From an uncultured Clostridia bacterium (GTDB taxonomy: Bacteria; Bacillota; Clostridia; Christensenellales; UBA1242), in NCBI GenBank assembly GCA_944383415.1, contig CALWPK010000001.1, positions 11,261-75,260 of the forward strand: a stretch of 64,000 bases of DNA, in the 5' to 3' direction. The notes below the pieces were generated by a model. That model worked only from the letters and a program-made list of their open reading frames with translations. It had not been told where the DNA came from and searched no databases. Numbering within the stretch: the stretch's first letter is position 1; every line of letters starts with the position of its first letter. Below, one piece after another: positions 24,205-28,478 of the stretch. The translations under genes were made by a program, and so were the position numbers.

Positions 24205-24951
24205 TCACAATTTTTGATTGCCTAAACCGTGTGCGAAAGTCAACACATAGAGTCCTTTCGCTCCGTTTGATTTGATCATCTTGCTCAATTCGTTGGAAGT
24301 TGAACCCGTAGTGTAAACATCGTCAATTATTAAAATTGACTTATCCTTTATCATTCGCCTGTATTCGCTATTGAATTTGAACACTCCTTTCACATTCTCT
24401 TTTCTCTGTTTAAGATTCAGTTCCGCCTGACTAATATTATCCACAATTTTTGTGCATAAAATGTGGAAAGGTATATTCAATTTTTCTGCCAAACGTCTTG
24501 CCATCAACTCAGATTGATTATATCCTCTCTTCTTTTGTTTTGACACATAGAGAGGGACGCACGTTATAATATCTGGTGAGATTTCCCAAGTGGATAAATA
24601 TTCACAAAGATAATTTGCTAGTGGCTCGTATAAAAATTTCATCTTGCTGTATTTAAACTTGTGCACAACTGCCACCACCTTATCGCTGTATGCGAATACA
24701 CTTCTAGCCAAATTAAAATCAAAGTTATTTGCCTTGCAGTTTAGACACACTCCGTCATTGTCAAGTGCCACTGGCGCACCGCAACGCGAACACGAATGAG
24801 TAATGAATGGAAGAGTCTTTAAACAAGTTTCACAAGTGTCGTTATACGATTTTTCATTCAATTCTTCTCCGCAAAAAATACATTTAATATGACGTGGATA
24901 AAGTAAATCTAAAATATTTTCTTTCAGTTTGCCAAAATTTATCTTTTTCAT
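24205..24951 (-). CDS. comFC: ComF-family protein (ComFC-like phosphoribosyltransferase with N-terminal zinc fingers)
   Basis: CIFCGEE...CETC...CSRCG...CLNC N-terminus and PRTase motif ILIIDDVYTTGST. Confidence 0.88.
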   Translation of the reverse strand: MKKINFGKLKENILDLLYPRHIKCIFCGEELNEKSYNDTCETCLKTLPFITHSCSRCGAPVALDNDGVCLNCKANNFDFNLARSVFAYSDKVVAVVHKFKYSKMKFLYEPLANYLCEYLSTWEISPDIITCVPLYVSKQKKRGYNQSELMARRLAEKLNIPFHILCTKIVDNISQAELNLKQRKENVKGVFKFNSEYRRMIKDKSILIIDDVYTTGSTSNELSKMIKSNGAKGLYVLTFAHGLGNQKL

Positions 24952-25338
24952 TTTTCCTCATTGGTAAAACTATTAAAAAAATTTTTATTTTATCTATTTT
25001 TTTATTAAAATTTCACTATTTTCAGTATTTTTCTATAATTTTGAAATTTTTTAATAATTTTGCAAATATATTTTATTTTTATATTTTTTACTTTATTTTT
25101 AATTATAATTTATTATTTTATTTTTTTAATACATTTTTTAATTAATTTTTACTTTATTTTAATGCGTTTTTATTATTAATTTATCTTATTTAGTTATTTT
25201 TAATATTATTTATTTCAATATTTTATTTATAAAAACCATTTTTACTTATAATACACCATATCGAAATCAAAATCTTAAATTACCGTATATTAGAATATTT
25301 TATTTGCCTTTTTTCAATTATCACGGCAGTCAAGGAAT
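24952..25338. other. Extremely AT-rich spacer, T-rich on the plus strand
   Basis: Direct count over 25021..25260 gives 21 G+C in 240 nt (8.8 %). Dense T-tracts. The only ORF (24894..25145) is a compositional F/I/L/Y/N artefact. Confidence 0.8.
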
Positions 25339-25662
25339 TTATTTTGATATAAAATGAAAGGAATTTTTATTCTGAGGAAGTTTCGAATAACGATACAGAA
25401 TATCGAAATAATTATCTTTTTCTAGATCTATATTTAATTTTTCTCTCATAAGTGGATTGAAAACAAGTCTATCCACAAACTCTAGAAAAAAGTATGGCAA
25501 TGTTTTATAGGTCTTTTTCTTGACATCCATCAATTCAAAATTGATAAAACCATATTGCACTTTGAATTTTTCCATATCTTCAAGTGAGGTGTAGACATAG
25601 AGATTATCCACCTTTTCAATTTCGCCTAGCAAAAAATCTTTATAGCAAATTTTTATTTTCAT
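25339..25662 (-). CDS. Small protein resembling the HipA N-terminal subdomain / HipS (107 aa)
   Basis: GGAGG SD lies inside the upstream gene, with a 23-nt overlap with the kinase ORF. MKIKICYKDFLLGEIEKVDNLYVYT...LPYFFLEFV...NPLMREKL...DNYFDILYRYSKL...NSFHF follows the HipA-N pattern (beta start 'l.V.l.g..vG.l......f.Y', later 'f.nLLPeg..r', 'd.f.lL...g.d..Gal.f'). Confidence 0.5.
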   Translation of the reverse strand: MKIKICYKDFLLGEIEKVDNLYVYTSLEDMEKFKVQYGFINFELMDVKKKTYKTLPYFFLEFVDRLVFNPLMREKLNIDLEKDNYFDILYRYSKLPQNKNSFHFISK

Positions 25663-27235
25663 CTCCGACCTCCACTATGCCTAATTTTCCATCAAATCTC
25701 AAACCTATATCATTCAGTACTCGTTCATCATTATGCTTTATTTGCTTTTTAAATATCGCAGTGTAATATTTGAGATATCTTTTCAACAACTTTTTCGTCT
25801 TCAACAATTCATTCTTTTCTTCTATAGAAAGATCATTTCTTCTTTCAGTTTCCGCACACCAAGCACGCAATTCTTTGAATACTGGGTATTGAGCCGAAAA
25901 AGTGATACCTGCTGTATACTCTGCATAACTCTTAATCACTGGTCTTGAAAAAAGTATGGATTCGACATCAAAGAAAAAATATTTCAATTGATTGTATATG
26001 TTGGGTTCTATGAATCTTCGCTCCATCGCGTATGAAAGGATGGTGGTATTGTATTCTTTGCGTTTTTTATCCAAAATTTTCTTCGCGTTTTTAATTTCTG
26101 GAGAATCTGGATGTCTAGACAATTCTTCACATTCGTCATACCATTTCCACATAGCCAATTCTCCACTTTTTTGTTTCGTGAAATTTTTGTAACTATCACT
26201 AAAATTGCTCTCATCCATATACTCGCTAAGATCTTGTACAATTCTTTTCACAACCTTAACATATTCGTCTTCTTCCAGTTCAGTCTTGTGCCTTAACACC
26301 ACTGCGTATATCGCCTCTAGAGGAATAAATTTTGCACCCTCGCGTCTAAATCTACATTGCTCAATTTTTTCTTTGACGTTGGTCTGCGTCCTCTCCCACC
26401 AATCATCCAATTCTAACCTTGAAAACAATACATCAAGTCCATAATATTGCTCAAACTCTTTCTTGATATCTTCGAATTTTTCGCCAAAAAGAGTTTGAAA
26501 TTTAATCAGCATATCTTTATAAGTAGAATTCAACAATTTTTGCTGTTCCATCCCATAAATTTCGCAATCGTTAGGGTTCAATTTGAACAGCCTCGCATAG
26601 ACGCGCAAAAAGGCGTTGGCGTTGTCATAAATCGGTGCTAGATCCAATTTCTTCACCCCATTTATTTCCCTGATCGTAAAAGCGAAGTTTTGAGAATGCC
26701 TGTCCCTTTGATTCGTCAGATAATCAAAACACGACATTTTATTCAATTTTTCGATCAATTCTTTTCGATTGATTTCAACATCTTTAAATTCCTTAAATTT
26801 GTCGATTATAAGATCGGCAACCTCTTCACAAGTGGACGAATCAAGTCCATACTTTATCTTTCCACCAATGTCTCCATACAAAAAATGTTCACCGAAATCA
26901 GGAGAGATTATCCCAATTGCCCTTTGACTGTGGTCAACGGCGATACGATAATCTACACAGTCAGATCCAACCTTTTTGGCAATGAATGCTGTCAGCAGTT
27001 CGGCAAAAATCTCGTGCCGAGCAGGATATTGACTGAGCGTTGGATATTTTATGAAATATCTTCGTCCTTCAATAGTTTTAAATTTGCTTGCAGTCACGCC
27101 CGTGTTTGAGCAAAATTCCTCATTATCTTCACCTATAAAAATTAAGCCAGGCCTAGAAACACCTTCTATATCGCACGCCATTTCTTCATACAATTCATCC
27201 ATCAATTGTTCTCTTTCATATAAACTAATATCCAT
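25640..27235 (-). CDS. HipA-like Ser/Thr kinase core with a ~315-aa helical C-terminal extension (531 aa)
   Basis: G46-VTASKFK53; catalytic-loop-like D178-R-H-S-Q-N183-FAF (HipA DxHxxN); L199-A-P-I-Y-D204 (HipA 'LaPaYD'). No N-terminal HipA subdomain. Residues ~216..531 match nothing I recognise. Confidence 0.65.
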   Translation of the reverse strand: MDISLYEREQLMDELYEEMACDIEGVSRPGLIFIGEDNEEFCSNTGVTASKFKTIEGRRYFIKYPTLSQYPARHEIFAELLTAFIAKKVGSDCVDYRIAVDHSQRAIGIISPDFGEHFLYGDIGGKIKYGLDSSTCEEVADLIIDKFKEFKDVEINRKELIEKLNKMSCFDYLTNQRDRHSQNFAFTIREINGVKKLDLAPIYDNANAFLRVYARLFKLNPNDCEIYGMEQQKLLNSTYKDMLIKFQTLFGEKFEDIKKEFEQYYGLDVLFSRLELDDWWERTQTNVKEKIEQCRFRREGAKFIPLEAIYAVVLRHKTELEEDEYVKVVKRIVQDLSEYMDESNFSDSYKNFTKQKSGELAMWKWYDECEELSRHPDSPEIKNAKKILDKKRKEYNTTILSYAMERRFIEPNIYNQLKYFFFDVESILFSRPVIKSYAEYTAGITFSAQYPVFKELRAWCAETERRNDLSIEEKNELLKTKKLLKRYLKYYTAIFKKQIKHNDERVLNDIGLRFDGKLGIVEVGDENKNLL

Positions 27236-27242
27236 ATACTAT

Positions 27243-27271
27243 ATTCTAAATCAAATGTGTGATTTTGTCAA
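27243..27271 (-). promoter_or_regulatory. Sigma-A promoter placed for a leaderless kinase mRNA
   Basis: Minus strand reads TTGACA (27271..27266), 17 nt, TAGAAT (27248..27243), then only 7 nt (ATAGTAT) before the ATG at 27235. No SD. Confidence 0.6.
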
Positions 27272-27547
27272 TCATTAATATGGCAAACACAAGTCTTTAA
27301 AATCTTGAATTTCATATAATACGCTTGTATGATTGTTGTAGTATCTATCCATAACTACGATTTTCATAACCTAAGATCCTCATCTCCTAAATATACATTT
27401 GTGAACCGAAGTTTAAAAATGCACGCCTCTTGTACTACTAATTTTTAATTTTCCACTTGAAATATCAACAATACGAATCTTAATTTGCAAATGGACTTTA
27501 AATGACAATTTTTGCTAGATCGACATTTTTTTATTTATAAAATTTAT

Positions 27548-27577
27548 TTGACATAGCATTGCTAGATATGATACAAT
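27548..27577 (+). promoter_or_regulatory. Sigma-A type promoter of the small ORF
   Basis: TTGACA (27548..27553), 18 nt, TGA-TACAAT (27572..27577). Confidence 0.6.
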
Positions 27578-27605
27578 TAATTTGACCTTAAAGGAGGGTT
27601 TTATT

Positions 27606-27737
27606 ATGACAGAAATGGATGATTGGATTTACACAAATGAGACACAGGCTCCAGGACAACCTTTGCCTCCAAAAGATGGAGATGACAAAAAGAGTGGTAA
27701 TGATGAAAAGAGTGGTAATGATGAAAAGAAAGGGTAA
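27606..27737 (+). CDS. Small acidic/lysine-rich protein (43 aa), unannotated in the ORF track
   Basis: GGAGG (27593..27597) lies 8 nt before the ATG. Sequence MTEMDDWIYTNETQAPGQPLPPKDGDDKKSGNDEKSGNDEKKG. The terminator hairpin overlaps the stop codon. Confidence 0.55.
   Translation: MTEMDDWIYTNETQAPGQPLPPKDGDDKKSGNDEKSGNDEKKG
27688..27729 (+). repeat. 18-bp tandem repeat (2.3 copies) inside the small ORF
   Basis: aaaagagtggtaatgatg occurs at 27688..27705 and 27706..27723, then a partial aaaaga. It encodes KSGNDE-KSGNDE. Confidence 0.9.
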
Positions 27738-27752
27738 CTTACCCTTTTTTTT
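27730..27752 (+). terminator. Rho-independent terminator
   Basis: aagggta - act - taccctt followed by T8. Confidence 0.75.
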
Positions 27753-28063
27753 CATTAAATTCAAATCAAAAAATTATTTATAAAACAACCTACTATTTAA
27801 TTTTCTATCGTTGACACCTTTTGCTTATTTTAATTAATATTTTTATTTAAAATACTATTGATCATCTTTTATTTCAGATATTTTATTATATTTACATAAT
27901 TTTAATTGACATATACTTTCTATAATTTCATTCAATAAGCGACATTTTTGATTCACCAAAATGAAGATAGGGCGATGTTTTGTTACTGAGACACACCTGC
28001 ATATTGAATTTTTTGATAGTTCTCATTTATTTTTTTGGAGTTTATATTTTGTCTTACCCAAAG

Positions 28064-28091
28064 TAATAAAAAATAGCCCTATCAGGACTAT
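28064..28091 (-). terminator. Terminator of rplJ-rplL
   Basis: Minus strand reads ATAGTCCT-gat-AGGGCTAT (a G-U pair in the minus RNA; a C-A mismatch on the plus strand), then TTTTTTATT. Confidence 0.7.
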
Positions 28092-28106
28092 TTTTAGCAT
28101 AAAGAA

Positions 28107-28478
28107 TTATTTAAGTTCAACAGTTGCGCCTGCAGTCTTCAATGCAGTTTCCAAAGCCTTAGCCTCTTCAGTAGGAACATTTTCCTTGACTGTGGCTGGA
28201 GCGCTTTCAACAAGATTCTTTGCTTCCATCAAGCCAAGACCAGTAGCCTCACGAACGGCTTTGATGACTGCAATTTTATTTGCTCCAACTTCTTTTAATA
28301 CTACATTGAATTCAGTTTTTTCTTCAGCAGGAGCAGCAGCCTCGCCAGCAACCGCTGGACCTGCCACTACAGCAGCCGCTGCACTGACACCAAATTCTTC
28401 TTCCAATGCTTTCACCAACTCGTTAAGTTCAACGGCGGTTTTCTTTTTGATTTCTTCAACGATTTCTTGTGTTGTCAT
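28107..28478 (-). CDS. rplL: 50S ribosomal protein L7/L12
   Basis: 123 aa. Ala-rich hinge ...[25 protein letters not shown]... and C-terminal ...[20 protein letters not shown]... Confidence 0.97.

What the first reader, a model, noticed from the sequence alone, without database searches (positions are those of the whole stretch)
25339..27235. Permuted, HipB-less split HipA-like kinase module: kinase with a long extension followed by an overlapping HipS-like gene
The 531-aa protein has HipA kinase-core motifs: G46VTASKFK, D178-R-H-S-Q-N183, L-A-P-I-Y-D204. It lacks the HipA N-terminal subdomain and instead carries about 315 extra, mostly helical C-terminal residues that I cannot assign. The 107-aa ORF overlaps its 3' end by 23 nt, with a GGAGG SD inside the kinase gene. 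It reads like the missing N-terminal subdomain (MKIKICYKDFLLGEIEKVDNLYVYT..., ...NPLMREKL..., ...YFDILYRYSKL...NSFHF). In established systems the order is hipB-hipA, or hipB-hipS-hipT with HipS upstream acting as antitoxin. Here the order is kinase then HipS-like. No HTH/HipB gene is nearby, and the upstream 370 nt hold no credible ORF. The promoter geometry implies a leaderless kinase mRNA. This may be an undescribed variant of the Hip kinase toxin-antitoxin or defence family.
Basis: partly seen in the sequence, partly recalled or inferred. Interest (0 to 1): 0.7.

Follow-up and report, generated by a model that had tools for sequence, protein, structure and literature searches.

The report
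Leaderless Hip kinase with downstream HipS
This is a two-gene accessory cassette in an uncultured gut Clostridia bacterium: a HipA-type protein kinase with an unassigned extra tail, followed by a small HipS-like partner. It is most likely a toxin–antitoxin or defence module of a gene order already described in 2021, so it is a new variant and not a new kind of system.

Summary
**Observation.** Both ORFs are real and lie on the minus strand: a 531-aa protein (K) and a 107-aa protein (S). They overlap by 23 nt, and a GGAGG lies 6 nt before the S start.

**Identity.**
- K has a HipA/HipT-fold kinase core (Pfam HipA_C sub-threshold, PADLOC PDC-M03A E=1e-12, Foldseek top hits HipT, CtkA and HipA). 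All catalytic residues are invariant.
- The truly extra C-terminal tail is about 230 aa, not 315.
- The S model matches HipS and HipA N-subdomain 1 as its top 14 PDB hits, with the same strand and helix order.

**Novelty.** The order "core kinase then HipS, no HipB" is not undescribed. It is the hipJS/hipIN organisation of Gerdes et al. 2021, known only from bioinformatics.

**What is new here.**
- The long kinase form carries a family-restricted helical tail.
- Every kinase gene of the family examined starts 6–7 nt after a TTGACA-17-TAnnnT promoter, which predicts a leaderless mRNA.
- The cassette occupies a hotspot between rplL and comF. It is present or absent among close relatives, has discordant alleles, and is 98.6% identical in nucleotides where the flanks are 82–92%.

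**Function.** A kinase toxin held in check by S is the most likely reading, but it is inferred and not shown.

The parts
27243..27271 (-). Promoter-like site TTGACA (27271-27266), 17-nt spacer, TAGAAT (27248-27243). The K start codon begins 7 nt after the -10 element, which predicts a leaderless kinase mRNA.
   Evidence: 11 of 12 matches, the best on this strand; the only match in the window; the same geometry ends exactly at the start codon of every K-family kinase gene examined, against 5 matches in all other fetched loci.
26339..27235 (-). K residues 1-~299: HipT-like core kinase without HipA N-subdomain 1. Gly-rich loop S43-K51 (27083-27109), ATP-binding Lys K63 (27047-27049), catalytic DRHSQN 178-183 (26687-26704), Mg-binding YDN 203-205 (26621-26629).
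   Evidence: Pfam HipA_C E=2.7e-6, 27.6 bits, below the 30.5 cut-off. PADLOC PDC-M03A E=1.3e-12. hhalign register against E. coli HipA. Foldseek top hits HipT(Lp) 8ezr_B E=4e-5, CtkA and Shewanella HipA. Residues invariant. Numbering.
25640..26338 (-). K residues ~300-531: conserved, mostly helical C-terminal extension of unknown function. It contains invariant W363/Y366/E368 within the GELxxWKWYDECEEL consensus (C369 is replaced by Ala in the more distant L014 homologue). The last residues overlap the S ribosome-binding site and start codon.
   Evidence: Secondary structure and pLDDT. No Pfam or PDB sequence match. The genome-wide pattern scan found it only in K-family kinases, always followed by S. 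Absent from the short relative L019, and not detectably homologous to the tails of L018 and L108.
25669..25673 (-). Shine-Dalgarno GGAGG for S, inside the K coding sequence, 6 nt before the S ATG.
   Evidence: Read directly from the sequence. Overlapping or abutting K-S junctions recur in relatives: 23 nt in L005 and L019, 11 nt in L001, 0-1 nt in L014 and L018.
25339..25662 (-). S: 107-aa HipS-like protein, the putative antitoxin or regulatory subunit. It overlaps the K 3' end by 23 nt (25640-25662).
   Evidence: AlphaFold2 model pLDDT 82.8. Top 14 Foldseek PDB hits are all HipS or HipA N-terminal domain, TM 0.55-0.66. No comparable hit in the viral control library. Topology matches the published HipS description. 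Three of 24 family members hit Pfam Couple_hipA weakly. Always found downstream of a PDC-M03A-like kinase wherever the upstream gene was on the contig.

Best explanation
This is a bicistronic, HipB-less Hip-family kinase module of the hipJS type, carried as an accessory cassette between rplL and comF.

Shown by computation:
- K is a HipT-like core Ser/Thr kinase with intact ATP-binding and catalytic residues, plus a family-specific helical tail of about 230 aa.
- S has the fold and topology of HipS / HipA N-subdomain 1.
- The pair is co-inherited and overlaps.
- Every kinase gene of the family examined sits directly behind a consensus promoter with no leader.
- The cassette is present or absent among close relatives and is exchanged between them.

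Inferred mechanism:
- K is transcribed as a leaderless mRNA with no Shine-Dalgarno sequence.
- S is translated from a strong internal GGAGG, coupled to termination of K. S would therefore be made at least in step with K, despite lying downstream and despite the lack of a HipB autorepressor.
- S binds the N-lobe of K through its conserved three-helix face, as HipS binds HipT, and holds the Gly-rich loop in an inactive state.
- When S is lost or displaced, K phosphorylates an essential translation factor. By analogy with HipA (GltX) and HipT (TrpS), the target would be an aminoacyl-tRNA synthetase. Growth would then stop, giving persistence, cassette addiction or abortive infection.
- The invariant Ser43 lies three residues before the loop Gly, as HipA S150 does, so it may be an autophosphorylation switch.
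- The variable C-terminal tail probably sets the target or senses the trigger.
For: - Kinase identity.
- HipS-like fold of S. Invariant residues of S are concentrated in the helical subdomain: 26 of 45 positions in residues 53-97 against 19 of 52 in residues 1-52. In HipS that subdomain is the HipT interface.
- Pairing and overlap conserved across long, middle and short kinase forms.
- Leaderless promoter at 9 distinct kinase genes.
- Accessory and mobile behaviour: absent from L021, L023, L024 and L025 at the same site. K and S are 98.6% and 99.4% identical in nucleotides to L020 while rplJ, rplL, comF and recD2 are 92, 92, 87 and 82%. K identity is discordant with flank identity in L022 compared with L011. 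The same cassette lies next to an IS transposase in L014 and in another context in L105.
- Purifying selection.
- Precedent for HipS as an inhibitor of a split kinase: PMC10627512 and PMC9325769. Precedent for the hipJS/hipIN organisation: PMC8262856.
Against: - No experiment or complex prediction was possible, so toxicity, K-S binding and the direction of the S effect are all inferred.
- Sequence-level links are weak. HipA_C is below Pfam's cut-off. S itself hits no library. hhalign of the S family against a single HipA sequence is not significant.
- The K model is only moderate (pLDDT 70.6) and the Foldseek E-values for S are marginal (1.7e-3).
- In HipA the same N-subdomain is part of the active toxin and is not an inhibitor.
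- The Trp65 that makes E. coli HipS inhibitory has no clearly conserved counterpart in the S family.
- Relatives with two kinases, each with its own promoter, carry only one S. This is awkward for a strict 1:1 antidote model.
- No match in phage or plasmid collections.
Confidence: 0.6

Rival explanations
1. Split HipA holoenzyme. S is not an antidote but the detached N-subdomain 1 that completes or activates the kinase, as the covalently attached subdomain does in HipA. Control would then come from Ser43 autophosphorylation or from the C-terminal tail acting as a cis-inhibitor or sensor. The cassette would be a one-enzyme, two-chain toxin or defence effector with no dedicated antitoxin.
For: - S matches the HipA N-terminal domain (7czo and full-length HipAs) as well as it matches HipS.
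- S is more conserved than K: 55-79% against 40-63% identity in the same genomes. Antitoxins usually evolve faster than their toxins (general knowledge, not tested here), so this fits an integral subunit better.
- Two kinases share one S in some relatives.
Against: - In both solved split systems, E. coli and Legionella HipBST, the free HipS chain inhibits the kinase.
- Translational coupling with a strong SD for S behind an SD-less leaderless K fits a design that keeps S in excess.
- A constitutively assembled active toxin with a consensus promoter would be hard to maintain.
Confidence: 0.22
2. Non-toxic signalling or housekeeping kinase. K/S would phosphorylate a specific cellular or host-facing substrate, as the HipA-fold kinases CtkA or MavQ do, and would not be a toxin-antitoxin or defence module.
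For: - CtkA and MavQ are among the Foldseek hits.
- The cassette sits in a conserved chromosomal position beside ribosomal protein genes in several species.
- No match in phages or plasmids.
Against: - Close relatives lack it at the same site, alleles are discordant with the flanks, and near-identical copies occur in genomes whose flanking genes are only 82-92% identical in nucleotides.
- A copy lies next to an IS element.
- The closest profile family is a PADLOC defence candidate.
- Neither protein shows a secretion signal on reading the sequences (not tested with a predictor).
Confidence: 0.12
3. The small ORF is a chance overlap, or K is a dead pseudokinase, and there is no functional two-gene module.
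For: S has no direct hit in Pfam, NCBIfam, PADLOC or PHROGs.
Against: - S is conserved at 55-99% identity with pN/pS about 0.2.
- It gives a confident fold.
- It belongs to a family of ~108-aa proteins, 21 representative clusters. Wherever the upstream gene was on the contig, it is a kinase.
- All catalytic residues of K are invariant.
Confidence: 0.02

Closest known systems
[quoted passage not shown]
   Same: A core Hip kinase that lacks N-subdomain 1, with the Gly-rich loop near the N terminus. A ~100-aa HipS-like gene lies immediately downstream. There is no HipB/HTH gene. Known only from sequence analysis.
   Different: HipJ kinases are 279-321 aa, whereas K is 531 aa with a tail of about 230 aa not described there. 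Phylogenetic placement next to HipJ was not tested. The leaderless promoter and the hotspot behaviour were not reported.
hipIN / PADLOC PDC-M03 (HipI kinase plus HipN = HipS-HIRAN), a candidate phage-defence system
   Same: The best profile match of K and of the short and middle relatives is PDC-M03A (E=1e-12 to 1e-16). The gene order is the same. One S-family member weakly matches the N-terminal part of PDC-M03B.
   Different: S is 107 aa with no HIRAN domain, and window S itself does not hit PDC-M03B. That PDC-M03 equals hipIN is my inference from the profile lengths and from PMC11706625; it was not checked against the PADLOC models.
HipBST of E. coli O127:H6 and Legionella pneumophila (PDB 7AB3, 8EZR, 7VKB)
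   Same: A split HipA: a kinase without N-subdomain 1 plus a separate ~100-aa HipS of the same fold. These are the best structural matches for both K and S. They also provide the experimentally shown mechanism, in which HipS blocks the Gly-rich (P-) loop.
   Different: The order is hipB-hipS-hipT with an HTH HipB autoregulator. HipT is about 335 aa with no tail. Here the order is reversed, there is no HipB, and the kinase is predicted to be leaderless.
HipL kinases (core kinase - HipS-like - HIRAN in one chain)
   Same: A long Hip kinase with the core at the N terminus and about 200 extra C-terminal residues.
   Different: The HipL tail is a HipS-like domain plus HIRAN. The K tail is almost all helical apart from two short strands at its very end, shows no HipS-like strand pattern, and has no HIRAN or other Pfam match. 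HipS is a separate gene here.

Membership tests
HipA-homologous (Hip) kinase superfamily | HipA/PI3-4-kinase-like fold with catalytic D-x-H-x-x-N, a Mg-binding Asp and an ATP-binding Lys | tested here: met
   DRHSQN 178-183, D204 and K63 are invariant. They align with HipA D309/N314, D332 and K181. Foldseek top hits are HipT, CtkA and HipA. PDC-M03A E=1.3e-12.
HipA-homologous (Hip) kinase superfamily | Passes Pfam HipA_C (PF07804) gathering threshold | tested here: not met
   27.6 bits against a cut-off of 30.5, covering residues 156-211 only. Precomputed Pfam lists PF07804 for 5 of the 7 full-length homologues (P0001-P0004, P0006), and the context look-ups mark those hits weak or faint where marked. 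K is a divergent member.
Hip kinase superfamily | Gly-rich loop with an adjacent Ser/Thr that can be autophosphorylated | tested here: inconclusive
   S43-N-T-G46-V-T-A-S-K51 has S43, G46 and K51 invariant. S43 sits three residues before the Gly, as HipA S150 does. The loop is one residue longer, and phosphorylation cannot be tested here.
Hip kinase superfamily | Conserved activation-loop motif | not tested
   I did not identify or align the activation loop.
HipJ / hipJS (Gerdes 2021) | Kinase lacks N-subdomain 1 | tested here: met
   The Gly-rich loop lies at residues 43-51. hhalign starts at HipA residue 165.
HipJ / hipJS (Gerdes 2021) | HipS-like gene immediately downstream, with no HipB | tested here: met
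   The same holds in relatives.
HipJ / hipJS (Gerdes 2021) | Short kinase of 279-321 aa, core domain only | tested here: not met
   K is 531 aa. Relatives partnered with S-like genes are 311, 386, 495 and 515-535 aa.
HipJ / hipJS (Gerdes 2021) | Branches within the HipJ subclade of main clade XI | not tested
Only the PDC-M03A profile similarity points to clade XI-type short kinases.
HipS antitoxin / HipA N-subdomain 1 (Pfam Couple_hipA) | About 100 aa, with four N-terminal strands, a three-helix subdomain and a fifth strand | tested here: met
   The model has strands at 2-7, 10-18, 21-26 and 50-52, helices at 57-68, 70-75 and 85-93, and a strand at 102-106. Foldseek TM 0.55-0.66 to 8ezr_A, 7vkb_B, 7ab3_E and 7czo.
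HipS antitoxin / HipA N-subdomain 1 (Pfam Couple_hipA) | Significant sequence match to Couple_hipA or to HipS | tested here: not met
   Window S has no hit at E<=10. Only 3 of 24 family members match, best E=0.0098. hhalign against HipA is not significant, though it is co-linear (S 48-93 against HipA 50-94).
HipS antitoxin | Binds and neutralises its cognate kinase | not testable with these tools
   This needs co-expression and rescue, pull-down, or a complex prediction. No multimer prediction was available.
Type II toxin-antitoxin system | Toxin arrests growth, and a labile protein antitoxin autoregulates the operon | not testable with these tools
   No DNA-binding component was found. Toxicity is untested.

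The most novel reading that the evidence does not exclude
The S-partnered kinases of gut Clostridia would form an uncharacterised family of abortive-infection or addiction cassettes. A constant HipT-like core and HipS-like lid would be combined with interchangeable C-terminal sensor or target-selection domains: none in the 311-aa form, and mutually unrelated tails in the 386-, 495- and 515-535-aa forms. The toxin-to-inhibitor ratio would be set by an obligatory leaderless toxin mRNA plus translational coupling of S, not by a HipB repressor.
Probability: 0.3. Interest if true: 0.7.

Novelty: new variant of a known kind. Interest (0 to 1): 0.5.

Why it matters
Clade XI Hip modules, with the kinase first and HipS-type partners downstream, have been known only as a handful of sequences. 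Only 2 hipJS modules were found among 1,239. In the literature I could search, none has been tested.

This locus and its relatives add three things:
- A well-sampled natural series of short, middle, long and duplicated kinases, all with the same small partner.
- A concrete and testable idea for how a HipB-less, toxin-first operon avoids self-poisoning: a leaderless kinase mRNA plus a coupled, SD-driven HipS.
- A new conserved domain fused to a Hip kinase, which may reveal how these kinases choose targets or sense triggers.

It also marks the rplL-comF gap as an exchange hotspot in an uncultured gut lineage.

Tried and rejected
- **PDB sequence searches.** phmmer and hmmsearch with K, the K family, the S family and the tail gave only chance-level hits such as MAD2, pilus subunits and GNAT.
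- **hhalign against one HipA sequence.** For S it was not significant. For K the register was correct but the probability was low. A single-sequence template is too weak for this test.
- **The search for homologous proteins with the tail alignment A7.** It returned nothing at all, not even the known family members. I treat this as a failed search, not as evidence of absence.
- **Remnant of a second kinase upstream of K.** None found.
- **Remnant of the cassette in the empty site of L021.** None found.
- **Rfam on 24900-28200.** No match.
- **Phage and plasmid tblastn with K.** No match.
- **BFVD fold search with S.** Nothing above TM 0.4, which served as a negative control.
- **RecD2 identities.** They were computed out of frame and are wrong. 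One search replaces them.
- **The tail as a HipS-like or HIRAN domain, as in HipL.** Rejected: it is almost entirely helical, with only two short strands at its very end, and has no Pfam match.
- **The 30-aa upstream ORF as a third component.** Rejected: it occurs only in the window and its nearest relative.
Full report
**1.

On the minus strand, 25640..27235 encodes a 531-aa protein (K) and 25339..25662 a 107-aa protein (S). The two overlap by 23 nt. The sequence before the S start reads GGAGG-TCGGAG-ATG, inside the end of K.

The neighbours are RecD2, ComF, ribosomal proteins L7/L12 and L10, and a 350-aa protein with no Pfam match. None is an HTH protein.

**2. K is a Hip-family kinase**

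- Pfam gives HipA_C at E=2.7e-6 (27.6 bits, below the 30.5 cut-off), over residues 156-211 only.
- NCBIfam gives a faint YjjJ/HipA match.
- PADLOC gives PDC-M03A at E=1.3e-12 over residues 56-210.

A family alignment of 10 sequences (39-97% identity) keeps these residues invariant: S43, G46, K51, K63, D178-R-H, N183 and Y203-D204-N205.

hhalign places K 39-210 opposite E. coli HipA 165-338. This puts K63, D178/N183 and D204 opposite HipA K181, D309/N314 and D332 (numbering checked). Separately, by motif, S43 lies three residues before the loop Gly, as the autophosphorylated S150 of HipA does. The hhalign alignment does not cover that stretch of HipA.

The AlphaFold2 model is moderate (pLDDT 70.6). 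Its best PDB matches are HipT of Legionella (8ezr_B, E=4e-5; 7vkb_A), CtkA and Shewanella HipA, over about 290 columns.

Two facts correct the size of the tail. HipA has about 108 residues after D332. The shortest relative, a 311-aa kinase in L019, ends about 100 residues after its Asp. The truly extra tail is therefore about 215-230 aa (residues ~300-531), not 315.

**3. S is HipS-like in fold**

S hits nothing in Pfam, NCBIfam, PADLOC or PHROGs, and nothing in PDB by sequence.

Its AlphaFold2 model is good (pLDDT 82.8, pTM 0.75). The top 14 Foldseek PDB matches are all of one kind:
- HipS of Legionella (8ezr_A, 7vkb_B);
- HipS of E. coli (7ab3_E and 7ab3_B, TM 0.61-0.66);
- the isolated HipA N-terminal domain (7czo);
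- the N-terminal part of full-length HipAs.

The E-values are marginal (1.7e-3 and above). However, the same model finds nothing above TM 0.4 in the viral library, which has no HipS.

The order of elements in the model matches the published description of HipS. That description is four strands in residues 1-52, a three-helix domain at 53-94 that contacts HipT, and a fifth strand (PMC10627512). The model has:
- strands at 2-7, 10-18, 21-26 and 50-52;
- helices at 57-68, 70-75 and 85-93;
- a fifth strand at 102-106.

Invariant residues of S are concentrated in that helical part: 26 of 45 positions, against 19 of 52 in the N-terminal sheet.

A profile search of 1.84 billion representative proteins found 21 relatives, nearly all 103-111 aa (two shorter, 52 and 92 aa). 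Three of 24 family members hit Pfam Couple_hipA weakly. It is the most recurrent family among them.

**4. The pair is a unit**

In every relative where enough contig was available, an S-like gene overlaps or directly follows a PDC-M03A-like kinase. The kinases are of several lengths:

| Kinase length | Loci |
|---|---|
| 515-535 aa | L001, L005, L007, L010-L015, L105 |
| 495 aa | L108 |
| 386 aa | L018 |
| 311 aa, with the same 23-nt overlap | L019 |

The K-type tail occurs only in the long form. A genome-wide pattern scan for its WKWYDECEE motif found only K-family genes, each followed by S. The tails of the 495-aa and 386-aa kinases are not detectably related to it.

Some relatives carry two tandem kinase paralogues, both catalytically intact, followed by one S.

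Both genes are under purifying selection. pN/pS is 0.19-0.40 for K and 0.19-0.22 for S.

**5. A conserved leaderless design**

Upstream of K lies TTGACA-17 nt-TAGAAT, with the ATG 7 nt further on and no Shine-Dalgarno sequence. It is the only match to TTGACA-N16-18-TANNNT-N5-8-ATG in the 64-kb window.

One match is not significant by itself, since 0.5 is expected by chance. The comparative result is much stronger. The same pattern ends exactly on the start codon of every K-family kinase gene examined. This includes both paralogues in the two-kinase loci, the copy next to an IS element, the sheep-rumen copy, and the short 311-aa kinase.

That makes nine distinct genes that are 24-62% identical to K. 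All the other fetched loci together give five matches.

**6. The cassette is accessory and exchanged**

The window belongs to an uncultured gut lineage near Candidatus Onthoplasma (Christensenellales in NCBI taxonomy).

ComF-centred loci from species representatives show the following:
- The module lies between rplL and comF in some genomes.
- Others have an empty site. These include L021, whose flanks are as close to the window as those of the nearest cassette-bearing genome, and L023, L024 and L025.
- The empty sites show no remnants of the cassette.

Nucleotide identity between the window and L020:

| Region | Identity |
|---|---|
| K | 98.6% |
| S | 99.4% |
| S-comF spacer | 96.9% |
| rplJ | 92% |
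| rplL | 92% |
| comF | 87% |
| recD2 | 82% |

Allele similarity is also discordant with the flanks. L022 has RecD2 90% identical in amino acids, yet K is 40%. L011 has RecD2 79%, yet K is 62%.

Other copies sit beside a transposase (L014) or in an unrelated context (L105). K has no match in the phage or plasmid collections.

**7. Comparison with what is known**

Gerdes, Baerentsen & Brodersen 2021 (PMC8262856) defined clade XI Hip families in which short core kinases are followed by putative antitoxins:
- hipJS: HipS downstream, 2 of 1,239 modules.
- hipIN: HipS-HIRAN downstream, 14 modules.
- hipL: kinase-HipS-HIRAN fused in one chain.

None has a HipB. "Kinase then HipS, no HipB" is therefore a described organisation, although I found no experimental work on it in the searchable library.

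PADLOC's PDC-M03 is probably the hipIN type. The A profiles are 250-428 positions long, most of them 280-305, and the B profile is 245 positions. An S relative weakly matches the start of the B profile. PMC11706625 states that HipA-domain plus HIRAN-domain gene pairs are PADLOC-predicted defence genes. This identification is my inference.

For HipBST, experiments show that free HipS inhibits HipT at the Gly-rich (P-) loop.

**8. Mechanism, with shown and inferred steps marked**

Shown by computation:
- the identity of both folds;
- intact catalytic residues;
- co-inheritance and overlap of the two genes;
- the conserved promoter-ATG geometry;
- the accessory and exchanged nature of the cassette.

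Inferred:
- K is translated from a leaderless mRNA.
- S is translated from its strong SD, coupled to K. This would keep S at least in step with K without a repressor.
- S caps the K N-lobe and blocks the Gly-rich loop.
- Free K phosphorylates an essential translation component and stops growth.
- The tail selects the target or senses the trigger.

The main rival is that S is a required lid of a split holoenzyme and not an inhibitor. Three observations favour it. S is more conserved than K. S lacks an evident Trp65 equivalent. One S serves two kinases in some genomes.

**9. Verdict**

The claim of an undescribed arrangement is not supported.

The locus is a long-tailed variant of the hipJS-type Hip module. 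Three features are new:
- a conserved tail domain restricted to this family;
- a family-wide leaderless promoter;
- hotspot and allele dynamics between rplL and comF.

Interest is moderate.

Noticed in passing
window 27606-27737 (+), with promoter-like site 27548-27577 and hairpin plus T-run at 27729-27747: A divergently transcribed 43-aa gene (MTEMDDWIYTNETQAPGQPLPPKDGDDKKSGNDEKSGNDEKKG) has a strong SD (AAGGAGG). Its first 20 residues are 90-95% conserved in relatives whose kinase is only 40% identical. It is absent from the two cassette-less close relatives, but also from some cassette-bearing genomes. It has no Pfam match. It could be an unrelated small gene or a third partner.
   Followed up: partly
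window 27275-27367 (-): A 30-aa ORF (MKIVVMDRYYNNHTSVLYEIQDFKDLCLPY) with an SD ends just before the -35 element of the kinase promoter. It is conserved only in the nearest relative (L010/L020), so it is probably not part of the module.
   Followed up: partly
L001 6001-9507; L007 1698-5208; L013 4341-7843: Some relatives carry two tandem kinase paralogues (515 aa and 518 aa, each about 40% identical to K). Each has its own consensus leaderless promoter and intact catalytic residues. Only one HipS-like gene is present, coupled to the second kinase.
   Followed up: partly
window 24952-25338; L021 6247-7000: An extremely AT-rich spacer (13% GC, 387 bp) lies between S and comF. A similar 754-bp, 14% GC spacer fills the empty site in a relative that lacks the cassette, so this is a feature of the comF upstream region and not of the cassette.
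   Followed up: partly
window 27674-28068: About 400 bp between the rplL terminator and the small divergent gene have no counterpart in the closest relative (L020). In L020 the alignment resumes only at 27673. The content is unknown and Rfam gives no match.
   Followed up: no
window 30434-51910 (-): A single 7,158-aa ORF with an N-terminal lipoprotein-like signal and repetitive sequence. In relatives the corresponding giant protein has a weak Flg_new match. It looks like a giant surface protein.
   Followed up: no
L016 1893-3086; L017 4363-5679: Bacilli MAGs encode 397-438-aa HipA_C-like proteins. They share the DRH..N and APxYDN motifs with K but have a fused N-terminal domain and no downstream S-like gene. 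They appear to be a different, monocistronic branch.
   Followed up: no
tool result: The word-indexed protein search with the tail alignment returned no hit at all, not even the family members found. That negative result carries no information.
   Followed up: no
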